A stretch of DNA of 64,000 bases from Candidatus Nitrosopumilus brisbanensis (GTDB lineage Archaea; Thermoproteota; Nitrososphaeria; Nitrososphaerales; Nitrosopumilaceae): the NCBI GenBank assembly GCA_038152885.1, contig JAYOXR010000001.1, positions 5,273 to 69,272 of the forward strand. Direction: 5' to 3'. Shown in pieces: positions 5,702 to 39,259 of this stretch. A program made the position numbers and the translations under genes. Each line of letters starts with the position of its first letter. The first letter of the stretch is position 1. Under the pieces are notes generated by a model, which worked only from the letters and a program-made list of their open reading frames with translations, was not told where the DNA came from and did not search any database.

Positions 5702-6970
5702 TTATCTCAAAATCACGCCTATATCTTGCAAATTTGTATGTGTAAATCCAGTTACAATGTTTGATTTTTGTTTTTGAAAGAACCTTCCAGAATCACTATT
5801 TTTTAAAAATTCCTTTATTGTTTCAGAATCAAATTTTACATTCTCTGTAATTGCTCCTGCAAAAACTGAATTTCCATCAATTCCATCAGTTCCCATTGAT
5901 GCAATGACAATTTTTTTTAATTTTTGTGTATTTTTCAAAATTCTCAAAACAAGTTCCTGATTTCGTCCACCCATTCCTTTTCCTAACACTTTGACTGTAG
6001 GTTCTCCACCAAAAATCAAACAAGTTTTTTCTTCTTCAGAAATATTTTCTACAATTTTTCTAACTTGCTCTTTAATGTCTCCGTAAATCTCAATTAATTT
6101 GACTTGATAACCCTTCTCTATTGCAGCTTGTTTCATCTTTGATACTACTAGTTGATTATTTGCAATTACGATATTTTCAATAGGCTCTACTTTCACTGAC
6201 TCTTTATCTACTCCTTGTTCTAATACATTAAGAACTTCAATTGGTGTCTTTTTTCTTAGATTGTATTTTTCTAAAACATCTAATGCATCTTTGTAGGTTG
6301 TGTTATCTGCAAAAGTTGTACCTGATGCAATTGATGATAAATCATCACCTTCAACATCTGACATGACTAGAGATATTCCCTTACATCTCATACTTTCTAA
6401 AATTTTTCCACCTTTGATTTTTGAGATGTGTTTTCTAACACAATTTATCTCTTGAATTGAAGCACCTGTTTTGAGAAGTAAATTTGTCATGAATATCTTA
6501 TCTTCCAATGTGATTTTATCTGGCAATGCCACAAGAGATGAACCTCCACCTGATACCAAAAACACTACTAATTCATCTGATTTTCTTGATGACAAAAACT
6601 TGATAATTTCTTTTGCAGCCTTGACACTTGTTTTGTCTGGTTGTGGGTGTTTCGAGTTAAAAATCTGAAATTTCTTACCTTTGACCAAAGACTTTGAGCC
6701 TTTAGGAATGACAATTATTCCTGCTTTGACTGGAATTATGGCATTTACTGCTCTAGTCATGGAATCTCCTGCTTTTCCAAATGCAACTGTGTAAATGTTT
6801 GAAAATTCATTCAACTTTATTGATTTTGAACCAATTTTGATTTCATTTGGAAATAGATAATCAGGAATAATATTTTGTGGATTTGCAGCTTCTAATCCTT
6901 TCTCTAAAATCTCTAAACATTCTCTCTTTCTAGATGTATCTGACAAATCTTCAAAATTTTGAATAATCAT
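5702..6970 (-). CDS. glycerate 2-kinase / hydroxypyruvate reductase family (MOFRL)
   Basis: 422 aa with VSGGGSSL, a GGEPTVKV.GKGMGGRNQE motif and a GTDGIDG signature of the MOFRL glycerate-kinase family. Confidence 0.8.
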   Translation of the reverse strand: MIIQNFEDLSDTSRKRECLEILEKGLEAANPQNIIPDYLFPNEIKIGSKSIKLNEFSNIYTVAFGKAGDSMTRAVNAIIPVKAGIIVIPKGSKSLVKGKKFQIFNSKHPQPDKTSVKAAKEIIKFLSSRKSDELVVFLVSGGGSSLVALPDKITLEDKIFMTNLLLKTGASIQEINCVRKHISKIKGGKILESMRCKGISLVMSDVEGDDLSSIASGTTFADNTTYKDALDVLEKYNLRKKTPIEVLNVLEQGVDKESVKVEPIENIVIANNQLVVSKMKQAAIEKGYQVKLIEIYGDIKEQVRKIVENISEEEKTCLIFGGEPTVKVLGKGMGGRNQELVLRILKNTQKLKKIVIASMGTDGIDGNSVFAGAITENVKFDSETIKEFLKNSDSGRFFQKQKSNIVTGFTHTNLQDIGVILR

Positions 6971-17044: not shown

Positions 17045-17731
17045 TTAGTTAACAGTAACTTTTCCGGTCATCCATGGGTGTACCATACAGAAGTAATCAT
17101 AAGAACCTGCTGCATCAAATGTGAATGAATATGATGCTCCGGCCATGAGTAAGCTACTGTCAAATGCACCAGATGGACCTTCTGCTGGACTACCTGCGGT
17201 TACAGTGTGAGCTGCGGTATCAATATTGTCCCACTCTACAGTATCACCTACACTTACTGAAAGTGATGCTGGTAAGTAACAAGAGTTTGACTCTTCACAT
17301 CCAGGTGATGCGGTTCCTGCTGGAACGTCAACTATGTGAGTGGTTGGTCCTGCTGCTGCGGCTGCTGCTGCATCTGCTGCGGCTTGTGCTGCTGCTGCTT
17401 TAGCTGCTGCATCTGCTGCTGCTTTAGCTGCTGCTGCATTTGCTGCGGCTTGTGCTGCTGCTGCATCTGCTGCTGCTTTTTCAGCTGCTGCGGCTGCTGC
17501 TTTTTCAGCTGCTGCTGCTTTAGCTGCTGCATCTGCTGCTGCTTTTTCAGCTGCTGCATCTGCTGCTGCTTGAGAAGCTGCAGAGTTTTGAGATTCCATT
17601 GGTTTGGAAACTACAGGTGCTGAAACTGCTGGACCTGCTGTTTGAACTCCATCCATGTAGAATGCGAATCCAATACCTATAGCTACAATTGCAACTGTAA
17701 ATCCAATTGCGATTTGGTCTATACTAGCCAT
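17045..17731 (-). CDS. membrane-anchored blue copper protein (plastocyanin/amicyanin-like cupredoxin) with Ala-rich spacer
   Basis: 228 aa with an N-terminal TM helix (IAIGFTVAIVAIGIGFAFY) and a ~77-aa Ala/Asp/Lys/Glu/Gln spacer. The C-terminal cupredoxin carries the type-1 copper ligand pattern H...YDYFCMVHPWMTGKVTV. Confidence 0.85.
   Translation of the reverse strand: MASIDQIAIGFTVAIVAIGIGFAFYMDGVQTAGPAVSAPVVSKPMESQNSAASQAAADAAAEKAAADAAAKAAAAEKAAAAAAEKAAADAAAAQAAANAAAAKAAADAAAKAAAAQAAADAAAAAAAGPTTHIVDVPAGTASPGCEESNSCYLPASLSVSVGDTVEWDNIDTAAHTVTAGSPAEGPSGAFDSSLLMAGASYSFTFDAAGSYDYFCMVHPWMTGKVTVN
17351..17581 (-). repeat. GCT/GCA-rich low-complexity coding repeat (Ala-rich spacer of the cupredoxin)
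   Basis: The plus strand reads gctgctgc(a/t)tctgctgctgcttt(a/tttc)agctgctgc... reiterated. A near-identical block gctgctttagctgctgcatctgctgctgcttt recurs 120 nt apart (about 17393 and 17513). The region is locally very GC-rich relative to the window and is open in most frames. Confidence 0.9.
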
Positions 17732-25341: not shown

Positions 25342-26484
25342 ATTACTACAAAGAAATCTCAACACGCAAAGAAGTTTGGAAAACTGATCTTTGACGATGG
25401 ATCTGTTCTTGAAGGTGAAGGTTTTGGTTTTTCAACTACTGTTTTTGGAGAGATTGTTTTTAACACTGGAATGGTCGGTTATACTGAAGCACTAACTGAT
25501 CCATCATATAATGGACAAATTCTTACTCTTACTTATCCTCTAGTTGGAAATTATGGTGTTCCTGACCCATCTGCAAAAGATGAAGATGGAATTTCAAAAT
25601 ATTTTGAATCTGATGTCATGCAAATTAGAGGTCTTGTAGTTCATGAATTATCTCACACTGCTAGTCATTGGAATATGCATATGACTTTAGATGAATGGCT
25701 GTTTAATGAAAAAGTTCCAGGTATATCTGGAATTGATACTAGGGAATTAACAAAAAAACTACGAAATGGTGGTGTAATGATGGCTGCATTAGCCGTATCT
25801 GATACCCCAATCAATGATGAAGAAATAAAACAACAACTCAATCAGGCTCCCGATTATAATTCTGAGCAATTCATGGATAGGGTTTCAACAAAACAAGAAA
25901 AACAATACGGCTCAGAAGATGAATGCATTGTAGTAGTTGACACTGGCGCAAAAAATGCTATTATTCGAAATGTTCGTGATTTAGGATACAAAGCAATATT
26001 GGTTCCATGGGACACTCCATTTGAAAAAATAATGTCATACAATCCAAAAGGAGTTGTGTTGAGTAGTGGTCCAGGTGATCCACAAAATTGTCCTGCAACA
26101 ATTGATACTGCAAAAAAATTAATTGAAACAAACACTCCAACATTAGGAATCTGTTTGGGTGCACAAATTATTGGAATTGCAGGAAATACTGAAACTTACA
26201 AATTAAAATATGGACATAGAGGTCAAAACAAACCTTGTATTAATTTAGAAAATAATCAAGTTTATGTCACTAGTCAAAATCATGGATATGGAATAAAGCC
26301 TGAATCCCTTGCAAATTCTGATTTTAATTTATGGTTTACAAATGCTGATGATAAAACTGTTGAAGGAATCAAACATAAAAAACAAAACTGTATTGCAGTT
26401 CAATTTCATCCAGAAGCTGCTCCAGGACCATTTGATTGCAAATTTGTTTTTGAAGAATTAAAAAAATTAATGGAGAAAAAGTAA
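25342..26484 (+). CDS. carA: carbamoyl-phosphate synthase small (glutaminase) subunit
   Basis: Has the GICLGAQ nucleophile elbow and the HPE triad. The track ORF starts at ATG 25471 (MVGYTEALTDPSY), but the conserved CarA N-terminus KLIFDDGSVLEGEGFGFSTTVFGEIVFNTG is in frame upstream. The frame is open from 25309 with no ATG, GTG or TTG. ATT at 25342 is my best start guess, so the start coordinate is uncertain. Confidence 0.85.
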   Translation: MTTKKSQHAKKFGKLIFDDGSVLEGEGFGFSTTVFGEIVFNTGMVGYTEALTDPSYNGQILTLTYPLVGNYGVPDPSAKDEDGISKYFESDVMQIRGLVVHELSHTASHWNMHMTLDEWLFNEKVPGISGIDTRELTKKLRNGGVMMAALAVSDTPINDEEIKQQLNQAPDYNSEQFMDRVSTKQEKQYGSEDECIVVVDTGAKNAIIRNVRDLGYKAILVPWDTPFEKIMSYNPKGVVLSSGPGDPQNCPATIDTAKKLIETNTPTLGICLGAQIIGIAGNTETYKLKYGHRGQNKPCINLENNQVYVTSQNHGYGIKPESLANSDFNLWFTNADDKTVEGIKHKKQNCIAVQFHPEAAPGPFDCKFVFEELKKLMEKK

Positions 26485-31833: not shown

Positions 31834-32862
31834 ATGAAAACTGCTTTTGTCAAAGAGCCATCTGTAATCTCTGTATCTGATTCACAACCTCCTGAATTAT
31901 CCTCTGGTGAAATTTTAGTTCAAATGCATGCATGTGGAATATGTGGTTCAGACTTGGAAAAAGTATTTGGTGAATATGGTCAACCATCTATGCGTTTAGG
32001 ACATGAACCTGCAGGAGTAGTAATTGATGTTGCAAATGATGTTACTGATTTTAAAAAGGGTGATCGTGTTTTTACACATCATCATGTTCCGTGTTATGAT
32101 TGCCATTTTTGCAATCATGGAAACGAAACAATGTGTAAAAAATACTATGAAACAAATCTCTCCCCATGTGGACTATCTGAACAGTATGTAGTTCCAGCAT
32201 GGAATGTGTCTCATGGTGGAGTTTTAAAAATTGCTGAATCAACATCTTTTGAAGCCGCAGCAATGATTGAACCTCTTGCATGCTGTGTTAGAGCATGGAC
32301 CAAATTCAATTACCAAAGTGGAGATAGTGTTGCTATTTTTGGAGTTGGTCCCACCGGAATGATGCATGTTAAAATTGCACAAGCAAAAAAATTCTCTAAA
32401 ATATTTTGTTTTGATGTAAATGATTTTCGATTAGATTTTGCAAAAAAACTCAATATCACAGAATCAATTAATTCTATGGATGAAAAGAGATTTGAAAAAA
32501 TTTCACAACACACAAATGAAATCGGTGTAGATGTTGCGATTGTTGCAACAAGTAGTCTGAAACCACTTGAAGATGCAATTGAAATGGTAAGAAAAGGTGG
32601 CTCTATTATGATGTTTGGTGTTCCTTCTAAAGGTGCAAAAATTAATCTTGATATGAGTAAAATTTATTCAAAAGAAATTACTTTGGTTACAAGTTATGCT
32701 GCATCTGACTCTGATACTAAAGAAGCACTAAATTTGATTGAATCAAAACAAATTGATGTTGAATCCTTAATCACTCACAAATACTCTATAATGGATACTC
32801 AAAAGGCATTTGAACATGCTAGAACTGGAGAGGGTGCCATGAAAATTATCATTACTAAATGA
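31834..32862 (+). CDS. zinc-dependent medium-chain dehydrogenase (threonine/sorbitol dehydrogenase-like)
   Basis: 342 aa with GICGSDLE and GHEPAGVV, a structural-zinc Cys cluster CYDCHFCNHGNETMC and the Rossmann motif IFGVGPTG. Confidence 0.8.
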   Translation: MKTAFVKEPSVISVSDSQPPELSSGEILVQMHACGICGSDLEKVFGEYGQPSMRLGHEPAGVVIDVANDVTDFKKGDRVFTHHHVPCYDCHFCNHGNETMCKKYYETNLSPCGLSEQYVVPAWNVSHGGVLKIAESTSFEAAAMIEPLACCVRAWTKFNYQSGDSVAIFGVGPTGMMHVKIAQAKKFSKIFCFDVNDFRLDFAKKLNITESINSMDEKRFEKISQHTNEIGVDVAIVATSSLKPLEDAIEMVRKGGSIMMFGVPSKGAKINLDMSKIYSKEITLVTSYAASDSDTKEALNLIESKQIDVESLITHKYSIMDTQKAFEHARTGEGAMKIIITK

Positions 32863-32897
32863 GAAAGGCTTAAGAAAGGTATTTTCAAACCGCCCAC

Positions 32898-33908
32898 ATG
32901 GATTGGGGATTAAAAAATAGATTATCTAGTATTATCAAACCACACAATAACCGTGCTTTAATGTTAGCAGTTGATCATGGTTATTTTCTTGGACCAACTG
33001 AGAAATTAGAAAATCCAAAAAAAGTAATTGCCCCTCTTTTGAAATATTGTGACTCTTTAATGCTAACTAGAGGTGTTCAAAGAACCTCTGTTGCACCTGA
33101 AACAAATACTCCTATGGTACTTCGAGTGTCTGGCGGTTCAAGTATTATTGGAGATGACCTCTCACAAGAAGACATTACAGTATCCATTCAGGACGCAATT
33201 AGACTTAATGCAAGTGCATTAGCAATGTCTATCTTTGTTGGCTCAAAATATGAATATCAAACAGTTGTGAATTTGGGAAAATTAGTTAGTGAGGCAGAAT
33301 CTTATGGAATTCCTGTATTAGCTGTTACTGCGGTTGGAAAAGAATTAGGAAAAGATGCTAGATATCTTTCACTTGCATGTAGAATGGCAGCAGAACAAGG
33401 TGCCCATATTGTAAAAACTTACTATTGTGAAAACTTTGAAAAAGTTGTTCAATCATGTCCAGTTCCAATTATTGTTGCTGGTGGTAAAAAAATTCCTGAA
33501 CGTGATGCTTTGCAATTAACATACAATGCAATCAAAGGTGGTGCTGTTGGTGTTGATATGGGAAGAAACATTTGGCAATCTGATCATCCAGTAGCAATGA
33601 TTCGTGCAGTTAGAGCAATTGTTCATGGAAATGCAAATGTCGATCAAGCCTTTAAAATTTACAAACAACTCATTAATGAAGAATCTAAAAACAAAAAGAA
33701 TTCTAACAAACAAAACAAAAAACCAAACAACAATCCTAACAAGAATAACAAACCTAACAACAAACAAAAAAAATCAAACAACAATCCTAAAAAAAATAAC
33801 AATAAACCAAACACTCAAAACAAAAAACCAAACAACAATCCTAATAAGAGTAACAAACCAAACACTCAAAACAAAAAACCAAACAACCAAAAACCCAATT
33901 CTAAATAA
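32898..33908 (+). CDS. class I aldolase of the DhnA/FbaB family (possibly ADH synthase of the archaeal shikimate route) with 74-aa Asn/Lys/Pro tail
   Basis: The LAVDHGYFLGP start, the IVKTYY Schiff-base-lysine region and the VAGG...GAVGVDMGRNIWQ pattern fit this family. Residues 263-336 contain only N, K, P, S, Q and T. Confidence 0.6.
   Translation: MDWGLKNRLSSIIKPHNNRALMLAVDHGYFLGPTEKLENPKKVIAPLLKYCDSLMLTRGVQRTSVAPETNTPMVLRVSGGSSIIGDDLSQEDITVSIQDAIRLNASALAMSIFVGSKYEYQTVVNLGKLVSEAESYGIPVLAVTAVGKELGKDARYLSLACRMAAEQGAHIVKTYYCENFEKVVQSCPVPIIVAGGKKIPERDALQLTYNAIKGGAVGVDMGRNIWQSDHPVAMIRAVRAIVHGNANVDQAFKIYKQLINEESKNKKNSNKQNKKPNNNPNKNNKPNNKQKKSNNNPKKNNNKPNTQNKKPNNNPNKSNKPNTQNKKPNNQKPNSK
33684..33905 (+). 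repeat. A/C-rich degenerate tandem coding repeat (Asn/Lys/Pro tail)
   Basis: The motif aacaaaaaaccaaacaacaatcctaa(c/t)aag occurs at about 33711 and 33821. The motif aaaccaaacactcaaaacaaaaaaccaaacaac occurs twice, at about 33806 and 33856. There is almost no G for over 200 nt. Confidence 0.85.
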
Positions 33909-33913
33909 AATAT

Positions 33914-34315
33914 CTAGTCTGTTCTAGATAGATGGAAATGTGCTATCTTCCATTCTGGAGTTTTTACTAATACAAATGAGGCCCGTCCATGAATTTCCAT
34001 ATGTTCACCAGTGTATGTTCTATTGTCAACCAACATTCCTTTTTGAATTAATTCCATTGCTACAATTGCCATATCATCAAAAATACTGATTTTTGGATTC
34101 TTTATCTGGTAACTGTAATCCGAAATACTGACAAATCGTAATTCTTCTAATTCAATTGTTGTCTGGAAATCTTTTAGATCAAATGGTGGCAAATCACTAA
34201 AACTAGAAAATTTTGGATCATTCAAATGAATTTCTCTTAATATCCCAGTATCTTTTGAAATACCTGCCTCAAACAGTGATTCAATAACTCTGATAATTTC
34301 TTCATTATCTGACAT
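33914..34315 (-). CDS. NTF2/SnoaL-like fold protein
   Basis: 133 aa. The pattern of an N-terminal helix, a cone of beta strands and a terminal W.I.H.H is recognised by eye only. Confidence 0.4.
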   Translation of the reverse strand: MSDNEEIIRVIESLFEAGISKDTGILREIHLNDPKFSSFSDLPPFDLKDFQTTIELEELRFVSISDYSYQIKNPKISIFDDMAIVAMELIQKGMLVDNRTYTGEHMEIHGRASFVLVKTPEWKIAHFHLSRTD

Positions 34316-34427
34316 GTTTAATCAAATCCGTTAGATTCTAAGTTTAAGTCTTATGAGATTAATCATAGTGTCAAAAGTTTGATAGAGAATCTTTATTAAT
34401 CAAAATTTGGTTATTTTTTTGATTTCA

Positions 34428-34475
34428 ATGAATAAAAGATTACCAAAAAATTGTGAGTTGTTATTACTCCTTTAG
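34428..34475 (+). promoter_or_regulatory. candidate leader-peptide uORF MNKRLPKNCELLLLL* upstream of ilvB-ilvN-leuA-leuB
   Basis: ATG at 34428 opens 15 sense codons, the last five being Leu (TTG TTA TTA CTC CTT), followed by TAG at 34473-34475, 57 nt before the ilvB ATG. A TATA-like TTTATTAA sits at 34392-34399, about 30 nt upstream. Confidence 0.35.
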
Positions 34476-34531
34476 ATTAGTCACTAAACTATAACACATT
34501 AAAATTATGGAAAAAAATTTGGTGAAATAAT

Positions 34532-36220
34532 ATGGAAACAATGACAGGCGCCAAAGCGCTCATGACTGCAATGGAAAAAGAAGGTGTAAAACAGGTATTT
34601 GGATTACCTGGCGGTGCAAATCTTCCAATGTATGATGAATTTGCAAGATGTAATATTCGTCATATTCTTGTTAGACATGAACAATCAGCTGCACATATGG
34701 CTGATGGATTTGGTAGAGTTAGTAGAAAACCTGGAGTCTGTTTTGCAACCTCAGGTCCTGGCGCAACAAATATTCTAACTGGTATTGCAACAGCACAAGC
34801 TGATTCTGCTCCCATGGTGGCAATTACTGGACAAGTTCCTGTCGCAATGATTGGAAGAGATGCTTTTCAAGAGAGTGATATTATTGGAATGGCAAATCCT
34901 TGTGTCAAGTACGCATTTCAACCAAGAACTGCTCAAGAAATTCCAAGTGTAGTGAAAAAGGGTTTCTATATTGCAGAGACTGGAAGACCTGGACCTGTAT
35001 TGATTGACATTCCAAAAGATGTCCAACAAAATGAGGCTCCTATGGAATTTCCAGAAATTTTTAAAATTCGAGGATATCACCCTTATTCTGATCCTGATAT
35101 CGTAAATGTTGAAAGAGCTATCGATATGCTTCTCTCTTCCCAGAGACCAGTTATTTTAGCTGGTGGTGGAACCATTATCTCTTCAGCTTTTGCTGAATTA
35201 CAAGCAATTGCTGAAACATTAATGCTTCCAGTAGTTACAACATTCAAGGGAAAGGGCGCATTTCCTGAAACTCATCCATTATCTCTAGGTCCAATTGGAA
35301 TGCACGGTCATGCTGAAGCAAATAAAATTATGTCTGAAGCTGATTGTGTTTTGGCAATTGGTACACGTTTTTCAGATAGGTCTGTAGGAACCTTTGAAGA
35401 ATTTGAAAAGAATCTGAAAATTATTCACATGGACGTTGATCCTGCAGAAATTGGAAAGAATCAAACTACTCAAGTTGCAGTTATTGGTGATGTCAAAGTT
35501 TCACTGAGAGTTATGGTAAAATTATTACTTCAAAAAGCAATTAAAAAAACAGAAGAAAATGAATGGGTGAAACATGTTAAAGAAACAAGAAATTATTGGC
35601 GAGAAAATCTAAAACTCCATCCTGGTGAAATGGGTGCTGCAAAATTATTAAGAAAATTAAGAGAACTTTTACCAAAGGAATCTATCATTACAACAGAAGT
35701 TGGACAACACCAAATGTGGGCATCATTATTTTATGATGTAATTCAACCTGGAACATTCTTTAGTTCTACTGGATTAGGTACAATGGGTTGGGGATTCCCA
35801 GCAGCAATCGGTGCTAAAGTTGCACGACCCGACGTACCTGTCGTAGATATTGCAGGTGATGGTAGTTTTTCAATGACTGAGAATTCTCTTGCTACTGCTG
35901 TTTTAGAAGACATCCCTGTCATTGTATTTTTACTAAATAATTTCACATTGGGAATGGTTGCTCAATGGCAAAGAACATTTTATGATAGAAGAATGATTGG
36001 TGTTGATCAAGGAAAATGTCCTGACTATGTGAAATTAGCACAATCGTATGGTGCTCAAGGAATTCGTGCACAATCAATGGATGAATTAGATAAAGCAATC
36101 AAAGATGCTCTTAGCAGTGATGTTGCAACTGTAATTGATATTCCAATTGATCCTGAAGAAGACGTATTGCCTTTTGTTGCACCTGGAACTTCATTAAAGG
36201 ACATGATTTTACCATCATAG
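34532..36220 (+). CDS. ilvB: acetolactate synthase, large (catalytic) subunit
   Basis: 562 aa with the ThDP enzyme pattern (GLPGGANLP, HEQSAAHMADGF, GDGSFSMT...LNN). Confidence 0.93.
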   Translation: METMTGAKALMTAMEKEGVKQVFGLPGGANLPMYDEFARCNIRHILVRHEQSAAHMADGFGRVSRKPGVCFATSGPGATNILTGIATAQADSAPMVAITGQVPVAMIGRDAFQESDIIGMANPCVKYAFQPRTAQEIPSVVKKGFYIAETGRPGPVLIDIPKDVQQNEAPMEFPEIFKIRGYHPYSDPDIVNVERAIDMLLSSQRPVILAGGGTIISSAFAELQAIAETLMLPVVTTFKGKGAFPETHPLSLGPIGMHGHAEANKIMSEADCVLAIGTRFSDRSVGTFEEFEKNLKIIHMDVDPAEIGKNQTTQVAVIGDVKVSLRVMVKLLLQKAIKKTEENEWVKHVKETRNYWRENLKLHPGEMGAAKLLRKLRELLPKESIITTEVGQHQMWASLFYDVIQPGTFFSSTGLGTMGWGFPAAIGAKVARPDVPVVDIAGDGSFSMTENSLATAVLEDIPVIVFLLNNFTLGMVAQWQRTFYDRRMIGVDQGKCPDYVKLAQSYGAQGIRAQSMDELDKAIKDALSSDVATVIDIPIDPEEDVLPFVAPGTSLKDMILPS

Positions 36221-36714
36221 TGATAAAGATGTGGGCAATTCTTTCAATTCTTGTAGAAAATAAACCGGGAATTTTATTTCAAGTTACACACTTGTTTAGA
36301 TCTAGAAATTTCAATATTGATAGTATCTCTGTAGGGGTAACAGAGAATCCTGAATTATCAAAAATGACCATTACCACAATTGGTGATGAAAAACAAATAG
36401 ATCAAATTGTAAAACAACTCGATAAAATGATTGATACTGTAAAAGTTGAGCGTTTAGATGAGCACAAATCTGTATTTAGAGAACTTAGTATTTTTAAGAT
36501 AAAGATACGTAATGCTAATGATAGTATGGAAATTAACAAACTGGCAAATGCCTATGGGGGAAAAGTTCATGATGTTAAAAAAGACTCAATTATGGTTGAA
36601 TTAACTGCAACCCCTGATCAAATTAAAGCATTTGAAGAATTGGCTAAACCATTTGGAATTATTGATGTTGCACGTACTGGTGTTGCAGCATTACAAAGAA
36701 GTGGTGCAGATTGA
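36220..36714 (+). CDS. ilvN: acetolactate synthase, small (regulatory) subunit
   Basis: 164 aa from GTG, which overlaps the ilvB TAG. ATG 36229 is an alternative start. It has the ACT domain ILVENKPGILFQVTHLFRSRNFNIDSISVG. Confidence 0.9.
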   Translation: MIKMWAILSILVENKPGILFQVTHLFRSRNFNIDSISVGVTENPELSKMTITTIGDEKQIDQIVKQLDKMIDTVKVERLDEHKSVFRELSIFKIKIRNANDSMEINKLANAYGGKVHDVKKDSIMVELTATPDQIKAFEELAKPFGIIDVARTGVAALQRSGAD

Positions 36715-38225
36715 AAGTAAGAATTTTTGATACCACTTTAAGAGATGGAGAGCAAACAATCGGTGTCTCTTTATCGCCAGATCAAAAACTCTCAATTGCA
36801 AAAAAATTAGATGAATTAGGCGTAGATGCAATTGAAGCAGGATTTCCAGTAATTTCTGAAGGTGAATCAAAAGCAGTTAAGATGATCACTTCTGAGGGAT
36901 TATCTTGTGAAATTACTGGTCTTACTAGAACAATCAAAAAAGATATTGATGCTGCAGTTGACGCAGGTCTAAATTATATTCATACATTCATTGCTACATC
37001 TGATATTCATTTACAATACAAACTTCAAATGACAAGAGAACAAGCATTAGAAAAAGCAATTGAAGCAGTTGAATATGGTAAATCCCGTGGGTTACAAGTA
37101 GAATTTTCAGCAGAAGATGCATCTAGAACTGATAGGGAATTTTTGAAAAAAGTTTTTGGTGAAGTTGCAAAAGCTGGTGCAGATAGAGTCAACATTCCTG
37201 ATACTGTTGGTTATTCAACTCCTGAATATATGGCTCAAATAACTAAAGATACTATAGAGGCAACAAAACTTCCAGTCAGTGTTCATTGTCATAATGATTT
37301 TGGATTGGCTGTTGCAAATTCGTTGGCAGGAATTCATGCAGGTGCTGCATGTGCACATGTTACAATTAACGGAATTGGTGAACGTGCAGGCAATGCTTCT
37401 CTTGAAGAACTTTCTATGGCACTCAAATGTTTACCATATGATCAAAAATATGAAACTAATATCAAATCTGAATTAATTTATGAGACATCGCGATATATTT
37501 CAAAAACTGTTGGAATTATTGTCCAACCAAATAAAGCAATTGTAGGAGCAAATGCATTTGGCCATGAATCTGGTATTCACACTCATGGTGTTTTAAACAA
37601 TCCTCTAACCTATGAACCAATTAGCCCTGAATTAGTTGGAAGGAAGAGATGGCTTCAAGTAGGAAAACATGCAGGAATTCATGGAATGAATGCTATGCTT
37701 GCTGAATATGGTGTAAAACCAAGTGAATCTCAATCAAAACAAATTTTGGATAAGGTAAAAGTGATTGGTGATCAAGGAAAACAATTGACTGATGTTGAAC
37801 TTCTATCTATTGCTAGTGAAGTAATGGGTGATAAAGAATTAAAGCGATTAGTACAACTAACCGGATTTTCGGTATCTACTGGAATTGGAACAATGCCATA
37901 TGCATTTGTAAAATTAAATGTAAATGGAGAAGATCATGTTGGAACTGATTATGGTGTGGGTCCAGTTGACGCTGCTCTAAATGCAATTCAGAAAATTACT
38001 GGAAAACTTTCCGAAATCCGTATCAAAGATTATGGTCTGGCATCAATCAGCGGTGGTTCTAGTGCTTTATGTGAAGTAACTGTTAAAGTAGAAGATGCAA
38101 TGGGAAACAAAGTCTCAGCAAAATCTGTTGGTGAAGATATTGTAACTACTTCAGTCAAAGCTGTTATTGACGCTATAAACAGAATCATGCTAAAAAAAAT
38201 CCTACAAGAAAAACAAACTAACTAA
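36711..38225 (+). CDS. leuA: 2-isopropylmalate synthase (LeuA/CimA family)
   Basis: 504 aa with IFDTTLRDGEQ, HCHNDFGLAVANSLAG and a C-terminal LeuA-dimer regulatory domain. The TTG start overlaps the ilvN TGA (TTGA). Confidence 0.85.
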   Translation: MKVRIFDTTLRDGEQTIGVSLSPDQKLSIAKKLDELGVDAIEAGFPVISEGESKAVKMITSEGLSCEITGLTRTIKKDIDAAVDAGLNYIHTFIATSDIHLQYKLQMTREQALEKAIEAVEYGKSRGLQVEFSAEDASRTDREFLKKVFGEVAKAGADRVNIPDTVGYSTPEYMAQITKDTIEATKLPVSVHCHNDFGLAVANSLAGIHAGAACAHVTINGIGERAGNASLEELSMALKCLPYDQKYETNIKSELIYETSRYISKTVGIIVQPNKAIVGANAFGHESGIHTHGVLNNPLTYEPISPELVGRKRWLQVGKHAGIHGMNAMLAEYGVKPSESQSKQILDKVKVIGDQGKQLTDVELLSIASEVMGDKELKRLVQLTGFSVSTGIGTMPYAFVKLNVNGEDHVGTDYGVGPVDAALNAIQKITGKLSEIRIKDYGLASISGGSSALCEVTVKVEDAMGNKVSAKSVGEDIVTTSVKAVIDAINRIMLKKILQEKQTN

Positions 38226-38245
38226 AAAATATGTTTTGAATAATT

Positions 38246-39259
38246 ATGTATAAAATCTCCTTGATTACTGGTGATGGAATTGGTCCTGAATTATCTGAAT
38301 CAGCAATTTCAGTGCTTGAAACAATTCATGATAAAACTGATTTAAAATTTGATATACAAAAACTTCTTGCAGGAGATATTGCATTAAAACAAACTGGAAA
38401 TGCTTTACCTGAAGATACTGTAAAATCAATAAAAAATTCAGATGTATGTCTTAAAGCTCCTGTAGGTGAGAGCGCAGCAGATGTTATAGTTGTTTTAAGA
38501 CGAATGTTTGATTTGTATGCAAATATTCGTCCGGCAAAATCATATCCACAAATGCCTGCATTAAGAGATGATATTGATATGGTGATAGTAAGAGAAAATA
38601 CTGAAGATCTGTATACTGGGAAAGAATTTCGTCTTGATGATGCTGCTGTTGCTCTGAGAATTATCTCAAAAAAGGCATCCACAAGAATTGCCAAATATGC
38701 ATTTGAAACTGCAGTTCAAAGAAACAATATGAAAAAAGTCACATGTGTACACAAATCAAATGTAATGCGTGTAACTGATACACTTTTTGCTGATTCTTGT
38801 AAGGAAATTGCCAGAGAGTATCCTCAGATAGAATTTGAAGAGATGTATGTTGATGCATGCGCTATGAATCTGATTAGACAACCACAAAAATTTGATGTAA
38901 TTGTCACTACTAATCTATTTGGCGACATTCTATCTGATGAATCGTCTCAAGTTGTTGGAGGATTAGGCATGGCACCTGCAGCTAATATTGGAGATAATTT
39001 TGCATTGTTTGAACCCGTTCATGGTGCAGCATTTGATATCGCAGGACAAAATATTGCAAATCCTTCATCATTTCTTTTATCATTAAAAATGATGTTTGAT
39101 TGGTTGGGCAAGAAAAACAATGATTCAAAATGTTTTGATGTTGGTGCAAAAATTGAATCAGTAATTTTTGATCTAGTCAAAAAGGGTTTGAAAACCAAAG
39201 ATATTGGTGGAGATAAAACCACTTCTGAATTTACAAGAGAAATTACAAAATTACTCTAG
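38246..39259 (+). CDS. leuB: 3-isopropylmalate dehydrogenase (beta-decarboxylating dehydrogenase family)
   Basis: 337 aa with ITGDGIGPE, VRENTEDLY and NLFGDILSDE signatures. Confidence 0.85.
   Translation: MYKISLITGDGIGPELSESAISVLETIHDKTDLKFDIQKLLAGDIALKQTGNALPEDTVKSIKNSDVCLKAPVGESAADVIVVLRRMFDLYANIRPAKSYPQMPALRDDIDMVIVRENTEDLYTGKEFRLDDAAVALRIISKKASTRIAKYAFETAVQRNNMKKVTCVHKSNVMRVTDTLFADSCKEIAREYPQIEFEEMYVDACAMNLIRQPQKFDVIVTTNLFGDILSDESSQVVGGLGMAPAANIGDNFALFEPVHGAAFDIAGQNIANPSSFLLSLKMMFDWLGKKNNDSKCFDVGAKIESVIFDLVKKGLKTKDIGGDKTTSEFTREITKLL

What the first reader, a model, noticed from the sequence alone, without database searches (positions are those of the whole stretch)
34392..34534. Leader-peptide-like uORF ending in five consecutive Leu codons upstream of the ilvB-ilvN-leuA-leuB operon
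**The uORF.** In the 216-nt region upstream of ilvB, an ATG at 34428 opens a 15-codon ORF, MNKRLPKNCELLLLL. Its last five sense codons are all leucine, using four different Leu codons (TTG TTA TTA CTC CTT), and it stops at 34473-34475.

**Context.** The downstream operon encodes acetolactate synthase plus the first and third leucine-specific enzymes. This is the context in which bacterial leu and ilv operons use Leu/Val/Ile-rich leader peptides for attenuation. By rough reasoning, a run of five Leu codons inside an ATG-initiated ORF at this spot is unlikely by chance in about 200 nt.

**Promoter geometry.** A TATA-like TTTATTAA at 34392-34399 would place a transcription start a few nt before the uORF ATG, giving a leaderless or short-leader mRNA.

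**Second uORF.** A 7-codon uORF (34507-34530, MEKNLVK) ends one nt before the ilvB ATG.

**Caveats.** I did not see a convincing terminator/antiterminator hairpin pair by eye. Any mechanism may therefore differ from the bacterial one, for example ribosome-occupancy-dependent reinitiation or oligo-T pausing. To my knowledge leader-peptide control has not been demonstrated in archaea.
Basis: partly seen in the sequence, partly recalled or inferred. Interest (0 to 1): 0.65.

Follow-up and report, generated by a model that had tools for sequence, protein, structure and literature searches.

The report
Archaeal branched-chain amino acid leader peptide
A tiny leucine-rich reading frame in front of the leucine/valine/isoleucine biosynthesis operon is conserved across ammonia-oxidising archaea, which points to bacterial-style 'leader peptide' sensing of amino-acid supply in a domain of life where I found no report of it; this genome carries a shortened, partly eroded copy.

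Summary
**Observation.** It is exact: ATG 34428, MNKRLPKNCELLLLL, stop 34473-75, upstream of ilvB-ilvN-leuA-leuB. Such a Leu run arose in 3 of 20,000 shuffles of the spacer.

**Conservation.** It is not a one-off. 59 of 88 distinct thaumarchaeal ilvB upstream regions carry a 15-30-codon ATG ORF whose last ten codons are at least 60% Leu/Val/Ile (1.5 expected). These include Nitrosopumilus, Nitrosarchaeum, Nitrosotenuis, Nitrosotalea and Nitrososphaera viennensis. The enrichment is frame-specific and not generically hydrophobic.

**Shared anatomy.**
- A conserved TATA box lies 27-39 nt before the leader ATG, giving a leaderless or near-leaderless mRNA.
- In several clades a hairpin overlaps the last Leu codon and the stop, and a U-run ends about 20 nt after the stop.
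- Transcript-like contigs in N. viennensis start 10 nt inside the leader and run into ilvB.

**Best reading.** This is a ribosome-stalling leader-peptide attenuator.

**The window's copy.** It is a derived form:
- An in-frame 12-nt deletion created the LLLLL-stop ending.
- The hairpin and U-run are gone.
- A second promoter-like box 33 nt before the ilvB ATG probably makes most ilvB mRNA. Metatranscriptome contigs start at 34525 or later.

**Second uORF.** It is not a conserved ORF.

**Limits.** Mechanism and sign of regulation are inferred, not shown.

The parts
34384..34399 (+). Promoter P1. It consists of the BRE-like AGAGAATC plus the TATA box TTTATTAA (34392-34399).
   Evidence: - The block GAGAATCTTTATTA is conserved in relatives.
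- A TTTAT[AT]A-type box lies 27-39 nt (mode 36) before the leader ATG in 61 of 63 loci.
- Other genes of this window show TATA-like boxes at similar distances, about 27-34 nt before the ATG.
34421..34427 (+). Predicted transcription start (G 34421, after T 34420) and a 7-nt 5' UTR, GAUUUCA. The start is inferred, not mapped.
   Evidence: - It lies 29 nt after the first T of the TATA box.
- TGATTTCAATG is conserved in the Nitrosopumilus/Nitrosarchaeum group.
- There is no RNA evidence in this clade.
- In N. viennensis, transcript-like contigs begin at the 11th nucleotide of the leader ORF.
34428..34475 (+). Leader ORF MNKRLPKNCELLLLL plus its stop codon TAG.
   Evidence: - Sequence read directly.
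- Homologous leader ORFs occur in 59 of 88 thaumarchaeal ilvB upstream regions (1.5 expected).
- The alignment shows it is an in-frame 12-nt deletion derivative of the ...LLLLVDxVL type.
- The one population variant seen, 34442 A>G, is synonymous (TTA to TTG).
34458..34472 (+). Five consecutive Leu codons (TTG TTA TTA CTC CTT). This is the presumed sensor tract, and it abuts the stop codon.
   Evidence: - Sequence read directly.
- Across the family the last 10 codons are 67% Leu/Val/Ile in frame 0, against 21% and 17% in the other two frames.
- The last codon is Leu in 52 of 62 distinct leader peptides.
34493..34507 (+). Conserved motif AACACATTAAAATTA, here called P2. It is a probable second TATA-type promoter giving a leaderless ilvB mRNA.
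   Evidence: - The first T of TTAAAATTA lies 32-33 nt before the ilvB ATG in 31 of 44 loci.
- It is the only conserved upstream element left in marine lineages that lack the leader.
- RNA contigs start at 34525, 34539 and 34545.
- The geometry matches other genes of the window.
34507..34530 (+). The 'second uORF' MEKNLVK. It is not a conserved ORF and is a by-product of the P2 motif.
   Evidence: In relatives the ATG within the motif is in frame with ilvB in 24 of 44 loci. In the other 20 it is broken into ORFs of 2-7 codons.
34521..34525 (+). Shine-Dalgarno-like GGTGA, 6 nt before the ilvB ATG. It would serve only transcripts that start upstream, at P1.
   Evidence: - Sequence read directly.
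- GGTGA or GGAG sits in the same place in clades that have no P2: Nitrosotalea, Nitrosotenuis and Nitrososphaera.
34532..39259 (+). The controlled operon: ilvB (34532-36220), ilvN (36220-36714), leuA (36711-38225) and leuB (38246-39259).
   Evidence: - Pfam domains.
- The same gene order ilvB-ilvN-leuA occurs in N. oxyclinae and N. viennensis.
33914..34315 (-). Divergent SnoaL-like gene. It bounds the regulatory spacer.
   Evidence: - Pfam domain.
- Conserved synteny in N. oxyclinae and N. viennensis.

Best explanation
**What it is.** The uORF is a member of a conserved family of cis-acting leader ORFs of the ilvBN-leuAB operon of ammonia-oxidising archaea (Nitrososphaerota).

**How the family is built.**
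- Promoter P1 makes an mRNA whose 5' end is at, or a few nucleotides before, the leader AUG.
- Ribosomes translate a peptide of about 15-30 codons whose last 7-10 codons are mostly Leu, Val and Ile and run up to the stop codon.

**How it most likely works (inferred).**
- When charged Leu/Val/Ile-tRNA is scarce, ribosomes linger on these codons.
- In the well-preserved clades (Nitrosotalea, Nitrosotenuis, an unnamed aquatic clade, one soil clade), a ribosome on the last four codons or the stop covers the 5' arm of a hairpin. That hairpin overlaps the last Leu codon and the stop, and is followed by a U-run ending about 20 nt after the stop.
- Blocking this terminator-like module lets RNA polymerase read on into ilvB. 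With ample amino acids the leader RNA folds and transcripts end early.

**What is shown and what is inferred.**
- Shown: conservation, reading frame, promoter spacing, hairpins with some covariation, and a transcript 5' end at the leader in N. viennensis.
- Inferred: translation of the ORF, stalling, premature termination, and the sign of regulation.

**The window's own copy.** It is a derived version.
- An in-frame 12-nt deletion fused the Leu codons into LLLLL-stop and removed the hairpin arm.
- No U-run is left.
- A second promoter, P2, 33 nt before the ilvB ATG, probably supplies most ilvB mRNA.
- Here the leader can at most modulate the P1-derived share of expression, and it may be on its way to being lost.
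For: **ORF conservation**
- 59 of 88 distinct upstream regions carry the ORF, against 1.46 expected from shuffles. At the stricter threshold of 7 of 10 it is 43 against 0.28.
- The last ten residues are L 41.5%, V 19% and I 6.6%, but F 1%, M 1% and A 3%.
- Leu/Val/Ile codons number 422 of 630 in frame, against 132 and 104 in the other two frames of the same nucleotides. At each position 5-10 different synonymous or class-conserving codons are used.

**Taxonomic range**
- It is present in cultured N. oxyclinae, in an N. cobalaminigenes-type contig and in N. viennensis.
- It is absent before ilvB in 9 methanogen loci.

**Promoter**
- The TATA box lies 27-39 nt before the leader ATG in 61 of 63 loci.

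**RNA structure**
- Two helices are in register in 31 sequences: 79.5% of cells are paired, against 14-50% when the partner is slid.
- The covariation score is 0.172 against 0.119 in shuffles (0 of 500 reach it). One pair switches AU(18)/GC(10) at a synonymous site.
- The stop-overlapping hairpin has mean z of -2.1, -2.0 and -2.9 in three clades. Whole leaders have z of -2.0 to -3.4.
- A run of four or more T is present in 39 of 63 loci and ends at +20 from the stop (interquartile range 20-21).
- Modelling a ribosome footprint abolishes the hairpin for A-site positions -4 to the stop, and not for -6 or further upstream.

**Transcripts**
- Contigs from two runs of N. viennensis end at the same nucleotide, the 11th of the leader ORF, joined to an Illumina adapter. 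They continue through the leader into ilvB-ilvN-leuA. Eleven similar places were not shown.
- A soil metatranscriptome contig of a Nitrosotalea relative starts 4 nt after the leader ATG and runs into ilvB.

**Window-specific**
- The in-frame deletion keeps ORF and stop intact.
- The only variant seen in four metagenomes is synonymous.
Against: - **No antiterminator.** No alternative structure was found. With a modelled ribosome on the first hungry codons (A-site -8 to -6) the hairpin still forms. In a strictly kinetic, coupled picture, slow ribosomes could therefore favour termination, which is the wrong sign. How polymerase and ribosome would be synchronised is unknown.
- **Hairpin dependence.** From my own knowledge, not tested here: archaeal termination is reported to need only U-runs and aCPSF1/FttA, so a hairpin-dependent step is not established.
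- **Weak structure in some clades.** In the window's own Nitrosopumilus-type clades the local hairpin is not significant (mean z +0.1 and -0.5). The window RNA is unstructured (z +0.29) and has no U-run of four or more.
- **No transcript over the window leader.** All RNA contigs on the window start at 34525 or later. No run labelled as RNA holds leader words.
- **Losses.** Several marine lineages and at least one soil clade have lost or never had the leader.
- **Run type unverified.** I could not verify the run type of the N. viennensis contigs. Two Nitrosotalea-type contigs (run X51, labelled RNA, and X50, labelled uncertain) extend upstream of the TATA box.
- **Relatedness.** The loci are phylogenetically related, so the counts overstate independence.
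Confidence: 0.5

Rival explanations
1. **Relic in this genome.** The family is or was functional, but the window's copy no longer regulates anything. ilvB is transcribed from P2 as a leaderless mRNA. P1 and its leader make, at most, a short useless transcript that is decaying, as in the marine lineages that have already lost it.
For: - The hairpin arm is deleted, there is no U-run, and the RNA is unstructured.
- RNA contigs start at 34525 or later in all 13 metatranscriptome runs.
- P2 is conserved at a fixed 32-33 nt from the ilvB ATG.
- Lineages L081, L093, L094, L096 and L116 keep P2 only.
Against: - The deletion is in frame and keeps ATG, Leu run and stop.
- P1 is intact and identical to that of relatives.
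- A GGTGA Shine-Dalgarno-like site, useful only on P1 transcripts, sits 6 nt before the ilvB ATG.
- Nitrosopumilus species with equally weak structure still keep Leu/Val/Ile-rich leaders across many diverged sequences.
- Short terminated leader RNAs would be missed by RNA-seq assemblies.
Confidence: 0.25
2. **Same sensor, different output.** Stalled ribosomes act after transcription. They might protect the operon mRNA from 5'-to-3' decay or from cleavage at the hairpin/U-run. Or they might open structure so that ilvB is translated, as in ermC/cat or the mycobacterial poly-Cys leaderless sORFs. Transcription termination would not be the controlled step.
For: - The equilibrium logic fits without any need for polymerase-ribosome timing: ribosome occupancy of the last codons opens the hairpin.
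- The closest known analogue with a leaderless sensory sORF works on translation (10.1101/834739).
- In Nitrosotalea the U-run can pair with the A-run that abuts the ilvB AUG, with the SD in the loop.
- Read-through transcripts are assembled in N. viennensis.
Against: - The Shine-Dalgarno sequence and the AUG are not inside the stop-overlapping hairpin, and I found no complementarity between the Leu/Val/Ile tract and the ilvB ribosome-binding site.
- The U-run at a fixed +20 after the stop looks like a terminator.
Confidence: 0.15
3. **Coupling sensor with the opposite sign (pyrBI-like).** A ribosome that keeps up with the polymerase blocks the hairpin and gives read-through. A slow ribosome lets the hairpin form and terminates. 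The leader would then report translation capacity rather than give negative feedback.
For: - The geometry fits. The U-run ends about 20 nt after the stop, so a ribosome touching the polymerase there would have its A site on codons -3 to -1 (the spacing argument rests on my own knowledge of bacterial expressome structures).
- No antiterminator was found.
Against: - It gives positive feedback on a biosynthetic operon, which makes no physiological sense.
- It would not explain why the codons are specifically Leu, Val and Ile.
Confidence: 0.06
4. **Not a sensor at all.** The ORF would be incidental to a conserved RNA or DNA element, such as a protein-binding site (for example Lrp-type) or a non-coding RNA. 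Alternatively it would encode a small hydrophobic peptide with a function of its own.
For: - The helices are conserved at the nucleotide level, and part of the Leu/Val/Ile tract is also a helix arm.
- The palindrome-like GCTGTAAATTTACAGC occurs in some clades.
- Leu-rich short ORFs are common in this AT-rich genome.
Against: - The enrichment is frame-specific: 422 codons against 132 and 104.
- ATG and stop are kept while sequence and length vary (15-30 codons).
- Leu, Val and Ile are enriched but not Phe, Met, Ala or Trp, and Asp/Glu sits inside the tract.
- The hairpin loop length varies from 3 to 9 nt, which does not fit a protein-binding palindrome.
- There is no Rfam, Pfam or NCBIfam match.
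Confidence: 0.04

Closest known systems
Bacterial ribosome-mediated transcription attenuators of branched-chain amino-acid operons (E. coli leu, ilvBN and ilvGMEDA leaders; Corynebacterium ilvBNC leader/uORF, PMC11857589, PMC10272879)
   Same: - A short ORF directly upstream of ilvB/leuA is packed with the cognate Leu/Val/Ile codons.
- It has its own promoter upstream.
- In several clades a hairpin plus U-run lies between the leader and the first gene.
- The expected logic is negative feedback through tRNA charging.
   Different: - The domain is Archaea, with a TATA/BRE promoter and no sigma factor.
- The leader mRNA is leaderless or has a 0-9-nt 5' UTR and no Shine-Dalgarno sequence.
- The regulatory codons run right up to the stop codon.
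- The hairpin's 5' arm overlaps the last codon and the stop, instead of lying about 50-70 nt downstream.
- No mutually exclusive antiterminator was found.
- There is no sequence relation to the bacterial leader families.
Mycobacterial polycysteine leaderless short ORFs ('Cys ribulon'; Canestrari et al., bioRxiv 10.1101/834739)
   Same: - A leaderless sensory sORF is the first cistron of an operonic mRNA.
- It carries a run of codons for the amino acid that the downstream genes make.
- A single RNA duplex is blocked by the stalled ribosome, rather than a three-hairpin switch.
   Different: [quoted passage not shown]
- Here the hairpin does not contain the ilvB SD or AUG and is followed by a U-run.
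- The organisms differ in domain, and the amino acid sensed differs.
E. coli pyrBI leader (the ribosome shields a terminator that lies within reach of the leader ORF)
   Same: - The terminator hairpin is within ribosome reach of the leader ORF.
- There is no antiterminator. Read-through depends on physical occlusion by the ribosome.
   Different: - pyrBI senses UTP through polymerase pausing, not amino acids.
- Its sign (tight coupling gives read-through) would be the wrong one for a Leu/Val/Ile sensor.
Archaeal U-tract / aCPSF1 (FttA) transcription termination
   Same: A U-run of 4-6 lies at a fixed distance after the leader stop in 39 of 63 loci. It is the kind of signal reported for archaeal terminators (my own knowledge).
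   Different: These terminators are known as 3'-end signals of genes. To my knowledge they have not been described as conditional 5' attenuators controlled by a leader peptide.

Membership tests
Leader-peptide (ribosome-mediated) transcription attenuator | A short ORF upstream of a biosynthetic operon, enriched in codons for the end-product amino acid(s) | tested here: met
   - The window ORF ends in LLLLL.
- Across the family, 67% of the last 10 codons are Leu/Val/Ile, and the enrichment is frame-specific.
- 59 of 88 loci carry such an ORF, against 1.5 expected.
Leader-peptide (ribosome-mediated) transcription attenuator | The leader ORF lies on the same transcript as the operon, downstream of the operon promoter | tested here: inconclusive
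   - Met in relatives. N. viennensis contigs start at the 11th nucleotide of the leader ORF and run into ilvB-ilvN-leuA. A contig of a Nitrosotalea relative does the same.
- Not seen for the window. RNA contigs start at 34525 or later.
- The conserved TATA box before the leader is present in the window.
Leader-peptide (ribosome-mediated) transcription attenuator | A terminator (hairpin plus U-run) between the leader and the first structural gene | tested here: not met
   - Window: there is no terminator-like site, the local hairpin has z = -0.1, and there is no run of four or more T.
- Relatives: it is met in clades A, B and D (mean z -2.1, -2.0 and -2.9). The U-run ends at +20.
Leader-peptide (ribosome-mediated) transcription attenuator | An alternative antiterminator structure, mutually exclusive with the terminator, favoured when the ribosome stalls | tested here: not met
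   - Masked-ribosome partition-function folding of 41 leaders shows the hairpin is lost only by direct occlusion (A-site -4 to the stop).
- It is unaffected at A-site -6 and further upstream.
- RNAalifold run per clade shows two independent helices.
Leader-peptide (ribosome-mediated) transcription attenuator | Operon expression responds to supply of the amino acid through translation of the leader | not testable with these tools
   This needs starvation experiments, ribosome profiling and Term-seq in a cultured ammonia-oxidising archaeon.
Translational attenuation (ermC/cat type; mycobacterial Cys leaderless sORFs) | The ribosome-binding site or start codon of the downstream gene is sequestered in a duplex that the stalled ribosome opens | tested here: not met
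   - The SD (GGTGA or GGAG) and the AUG lie outside the stop-overlapping hairpin.
- I saw no complementarity between the Leu/Val/Ile tract and the ilvB ribosome-binding site.
- A weak pairing of the U-run with the A-run next to the AUG exists in Nitrosotalea.
Curated leader-peptide and leader-RNA families (Pfam and NCBIfam leader peptides; Rfam leader RNAs) | A sequence or structure match to a curated model | tested here: not met
   - Rfam: nothing with E-value below 1.6 on the window region, and nothing up to E-value 0.1 on 7 relatives.
- NCBIfam and Pfam: no hit for 8 leader peptides at E-value up to 10.
Archaeal TATA/BRE promoter giving a leaderless mRNA (P1 and P2) | An AT-rich TATA box about 25-35 nt upstream of the start codon, with conserved spacing | tested here: met
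   - P1: 27-39 nt before the leader ATG in 61 of 63 loci.
- P2: 32-33 nt before the ilvB ATG in 31 of 44 loci.
- Other window genes show the same geometry.
- Promoter activity itself was not tested.

The most novel reading that the evidence does not exclude
Ammonia-oxidising archaea regulate their ilvBN-leuAB operon by leader-peptide attenuation. A leaderless mini-ORF rich in Leu/Val/Ile codons reports tRNA charging through ribosome stalling. It controls a terminator built from a stop-codon-overlapping hairpin plus an archaeal U-tract, without an antiterminator. This would be the first ribosome-mediated attenuator in Archaea, and direct evidence that transcription-translation coupling is used for gene control in that domain. 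It would also be old (shared by Nitrosopumilales and Nitrososphaerales) and be in the course of replacement by a plain promoter in marine lineages such as this one.
Probability: 0.5. Interest if true: 0.9.

Novelty: new variant of a known kind. Interest (0 to 1): 0.8.

Why it matters
**The gap it would fill.** Leader-peptide attenuation is a textbook bacterial mechanism. Seven full-text literature searches found no report of it in Archaea, and I know of none. Very little is known about how ammonia-oxidising archaea, among the most abundant microbes in oceans and soils, regulate biosynthesis.

**What a conserved element would show.**
- Archaeal ribosomes and RNA polymerase can be functionally coupled for regulation.
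- Leaderless mRNAs can carry sensory mini-ORFs.
- Attenuation either arose independently in this lineage or is older than thought.

**Why it is testable.** N. viennensis, Nitrosopumilus species and Nitrosotalea devanaterra are in culture and carry the element.

**Side benefits.**
- The element gives annotators a family of unannotated small ORFs.
- It explains the inconsistent ilvB start-codon calls (562, 565 or 570 aa).
- It offers a natural series from a full attenuator to a promoter-only arrangement for studying how such switches decay.

Tried and rejected
- **Known RNA families.** Rfam scans of the window region and of 7 relatives found nothing.
- **Known leader-peptide families.** Pfam and NCBIfam found nothing.
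- **Bacterial-type terminator scan of the window.** None found.
- **Classical 1:2 / 2:3 / 3:4 switch.** I used RNAalifold per clade and partition-function folding with a modelled ribosome at every codon. This gave only two independent helices and no antiterminator.
- **Sequestration of the ilvB SD/AUG by the Leu/Val/Ile tract.** Not seen.
- **Long-range pairing of the post-stop element with the 5'-terminal AUG region.** It is suggestive by eye in Nitrosopumilus and Nitrososphaera, with a few compensatory changes. It was not tested statistically, and whole-leader z-scores there are not significant. I left it as an idea.
- **The second uORF as a regulatory ORF.** Rejected.
- **Other sensory uORFs in the 64-kb window.**
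  - An LIIII uORF (7028-6978, minus strand) precedes a glycerate-kinase-like gene, so it is probably chance.
  - MDKFLLLLIL at 25511 lies inside carA in another frame.
- **Leaders before ilvB in methanogens.** None in 9 loci.
- **Direct RNA evidence for the window leader.** There were no raw-read runs, only assembled contigs of metatranscriptomes, and none covers the leader.
- **TSS papers for Nitrosopumilus or N. viennensis in the held library.** None found.
- **Kinetic reasoning about the sign of regulation.** It did not converge. The sign is inferred from physiology only.


Full report
**1. The observation**

- ATG 34428 opens MNKRLPKNCELLLLL. The five Leu codons TTG TTA TTA CTC CTT are at 34458-34472, and the stop TAG at 34473-34475.
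- TTTATTAA is at 34392-34399. A 7-codon ORF is at 34507-34530. The ilvB ATG is at 34532.
- Pfam confirms ilvB, ilvN, leuA and leuB downstream, and a divergent SnoaL-like gene upstream.
- A Leu run of five or more inside an ATG ORF arises in 0.015% of dinucleotide shuffles of the 216-nt spacer.
- Leu-rich short ORFs are otherwise not rare in this AT-rich window. The window alone is therefore only suggestive.

**2. The ORF is conserved**

I fetched ilvB loci from species-representative genomes and from metagenomes, using the ilvB N-terminus as query.
- Nearly every thaumarchaeal locus has, 90-155 nt before ilvB, an ATG ORF of 15-30 codons that ends in a Leu/Val/Ile tract.
- Examples:
  - MSTKLTGPISKNLQVVVLL (Nitrosopumilus type)
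  - MSTTTNYALGVLSLVYLVL (Nitrosarchaeum)
  - MEKISSISIVSILLLVDLEL and MQRIRATSTVGILLLVDLVL (an unnamed aquatic clade)
  - MNMTIYSSTALAVLLPVELVL (Nitrosotenuis)
  - MTKVDSTSISSILLQVELVL (Nitrosotalea devanaterra)
  - MNEHGNATSLVELLLLVVLLD, MPRADSEHWQKVHVLVLLRLA and MPYANGEEYVVDPSQLQVNVPSVAIVMLL (soil clades)
- 59 of 88 distinct upstream regions have such an ORF with at least 6 of the last 10 residues Leu/Val/Ile. Shuffles give 1.46. At 7 or more it is 43 against 0.28.
- The last ten residues are 41.5% Leu, 19% Val and 6.6% Ile, but only 1% Phe, 1% Met and 3% Ala. Asp or Glu is frequent at position -4. This is not a generic hydrophobic peptide.
- In the same 30 nucleotides, Leu/Val/Ile codons number 422 of 630 in the ORF frame, against 132 and 104 in the other frames. 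Five to ten different codons are used at each Leu/Val/Ile position. The amino-acid class is what is conserved, not the nucleotides.
- Cultured strains carry it:
  - N. oxyclinae: MNTKLAKIFGDDLLFVVLL.
  - An N. cobalaminigenes-type contig: MDVKLTKKFGNDLPLVILL.
  - Nitrososphaera viennensis EN76: [22 protein letters not shown].
- Nine methanogen ilvB loci have nothing comparable.
- The loci are related by descent, so these counts are not independent trials. However, the sequences have diverged so far that only the features listed are shared.

**3. Promoter and transcript**

- A TTTAT[AT]A-type box lies 27-39 nt (mode 36) before the leader ATG in 61 of 63 loci. In the window's group it sits within the conserved block GAGAATCTTTATTA.
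- Other genes of the window show TATA-like boxes about 27-34 nt before their ATGs, so leaderless or near-leaderless mRNAs appear to be the norm here.
- For the window I infer a start at about G 34421 and a 7-nt 5' UTR.
- RNA evidence comes from relatives.
  - For N. viennensis, contigs assembled from two separate runs (5,283 and 3,004 nt) end at exactly the same nucleotide, the 11th of the leader ORF. There they are joined to an Illumina adapter. They continue through the leader into ilvB, ilvN and leuA. Eleven similar places were not displayed.
  - I could not check the library type. An identical end in several runs and operon-sized contigs argue for RNA with a 5' end at the leader.
  - A soil metatranscriptome contig of a Nitrosotalea relative starts 4 nt after the leader ATG and runs into ilvB.
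  - Two other contigs there extend upstream of the TATA box, which is unexplained.

**4. What follows the leader**

- In Nitrosotalea/Nitrosotenuis (clade A), the unnamed aquatic clade (B) and one soil clade (D), two helices are conserved.
  - Helix 1 pairs codons of about -15 to -12 with the Leu-Leu-Val-Asp/Glu codons at -8 to -5.
  - Helix 2 has a 5' arm made of the last Leu codon plus the stop (GCUGUAA...UUACAGC). Its loop is 3-9 nt.
- A U-run follows helix 2.
- On a 31-sequence alignment, 79.5% of cells pair in register, against 14-50% when the partners are slid. The covariation score exceeds all 500 shuffles. One pair alternates AU(18)/GC(10) at a synonymous Val position. Covariation is otherwise modest, because both arms are also coding.
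- The stop-overlapping hairpin has mean z of -2.1, -2.0 and -2.9 in clades A, B and D. Whole leaders have z of -2.0 to -3.4.
- A run of four or more T occurs in 39 of 63 loci and ends at +20 from the first base of the stop (interquartile range 20-21).
- Modelling a ribosome footprint gives a clear result. The hairpin forms (probability about 0.9) in free RNA and with the A site at or before -6. It is abolished with the A site on -4 to the stop. No hidden antiterminator appears.
- The Nitrosopumilus-type clades and Nitrososphaera do not show a significant local hairpin. By eye, the post-stop segment there can pair with the 5'-terminal AUG region. I did not establish this statistically.

**5. 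The window's copy**

- Aligned with its nearest relatives (L099 MTEKLPENTGLLLLVDPVL, L100), the window lacks 12 nt, which is four codons (Val-Asp-x-Val). This fuses the Leu codons into LLLLL next to the same CTT-TAG ending.
- The deletion is in frame. It keeps the ATG and the stop but removes the 5' arm of the small stop-overlapping hairpin.
- The leader RNA folds no better than shuffles (z = +0.29). There is no U-run of four or more and no terminator-like site.
- The leader is identical in four metagenomes from different studies, apart from one synonymous TTA to TTG change.

**6. A second promoter**

- The motif AACACATTAAAATTATGG (34493-34510) is conserved in the marine and freshwater clades. 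The first T of TTAAAATTA lies 32-33 nt before the ilvB ATG in 31 of 44 loci.
- It is the only upstream element retained in marine lineages that have lost the leader. It is absent from Nitrosotalea, Nitrosotenuis and the soil clades, which instead have GGTGA or GGAG before ilvB.
In 20 it is interrupted after 2-7 codons. It is therefore not a conserved ORF. This also explains why databases list ilvB as 562, 565 or 570 aa.
- In 13 metatranscriptome runs, all contigs on the window's ilvB begin at 34525, 34539, 34545 or later. None covers 34305-34524, and no run labelled as RNA holds leader words.
- This weak evidence says that, in nature, most ilvB mRNA of this organism starts at P2. It equally fits P1 transcripts that terminate early and are too short to be assembled.

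**7. How it most likely works**

- The conserved design is a Leu/Val/Ile tract that ends at the stop codon, which in turn abuts or overlaps a hairpin followed by a U-run.
- The straightforward reading is that ribosomes lingering on the last Leu/Val/Ile codons keep the hairpin open, so the polymerase reads through. With ample amino acids the leader folds and transcripts end.
- Shown: anatomy, conservation, and transcripts that start at the leader.
- Inferred: translation, stalling, termination and the sign.
- The main weakness is kinetic. Without an antiterminator, a ribosome held at the first hungry codons does not block the hairpin. The U-run is so close to the stop that only a ribosome touching the polymerase could do so. 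A post-transcriptional output, or even an inverse, pyrBI-like logic, cannot be excluded.
- For the window, whose output module is eroded and which has P2, I rate a residual or lost function as a serious alternative.

**8. Comparison and novelty**

- The element works like bacterial leu/ilv leader-peptide attenuators. In its leaderless, single-duplex layout it resembles the mycobacterial poly-Cys sORFs (10.1101/834739).
- It is not a sequence member of any curated family, and it fails the antiterminator criterion of the classical class.
- Seven full-text searches found no archaeal leader-peptide attenuator. The library lacks most subscription journals, so prior description cannot be ruled out.
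- I classify it as a new variant of a known kind, of high interest at the family level. The window holds a degenerate example of it.

Noticed in passing
window 34493-34538; also L001, L082, L087, L101, L106: - In relatives, the U-run after the leader and the P2 motif form a near-perfect AU palindrome (AAUUUUAA-cacA-UUAAAAUU).
- In the window, Tandem Repeats Finder sees about three copies of AAAATTATGGAAA across P2 and the ilvB start.
- In Nitrosotalea, AAAATTATGG is the ilvB start itself. P2 may therefore have arisen by duplication of the start region.
   Followed up: partly
window 33679-33898 (3' end of the DeoC-like gene 32898-33908): - The aldolase-like gene ends in a Lys/Asn/Pro-rich low-complexity tail encoded by 51-nt and 33-nt A/C-rich tandem repeats. 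GC skew here is -0.89 and AT skew +0.74.
- Metagenome and metatranscriptome contigs show indels and rearranged copies in this tail, so its length varies between strains.
   Followed up: partly
window 7028-6978 (minus strand): A 16-codon uORF, MHKTQTSLIIIISCIA, with four consecutive Ile codons ends 7 nt before the ATG of gene 5702-6970. That gene is a DUF4147/MOFRL (glycerate-kinase-like) protein and is not linked to Ile, so the uORF is probably chance in AT-rich sequence.
   Followed up: partly
window 31834-36714; L161; L164: The gene order Zn-alcohol dehydrogenase, DeoC-like aldolase, SnoaL-like (opposite strand), ilvB, ilvN, leuA is shared by this marine genome and soil Nitrososphaera viennensis. 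N. oxyclinae shares the part visible in its locus, from the aldolase onwards. This synteny is unusually deep.
   Followed up: no
window 34507/34523/34532; proteins P0001-P0120: Public annotations give ilvB of close relatives as 562, 565, 570 or 571 aa, because of in-frame ATGs 9 and 24 nt upstream of the conserved METM start. The promoter spacing favours the 562-aa start.
   Followed up: partly
window 17266-17466 (both strands, inside gene 17045-17731, minus strand): This is a Gln-rich repetitive stretch (MQQQLKQQQ... on the minus strand, which reads Leu-rich on the plus strand). It marks a low-complexity repeat protein.
   Followed up: no
L136, L142, L155, L157 (soil loci; ilvB begins MSEMSGAKAL): This soil clade has no leader. 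Instead it has a conserved GACAACGAGTATATATACGAAGCATCAATGAATATTCCTACA block directly before the ilvB ATG. This appears to be a different, promoter-only arrangement. I did not determine the genus.
   Followed up: no
L009 2700-3068 (runs X50 and X51): Two contigs of Nitrosotalea relatives, one from a run labelled RNA and one labelled uncertain, extend upstream of the leader TATA box, unlike the contig from X49. They may reflect DNA carry-over, antisense transcription or read-through from the divergent gene. This is unexplained.
   Followed up: no
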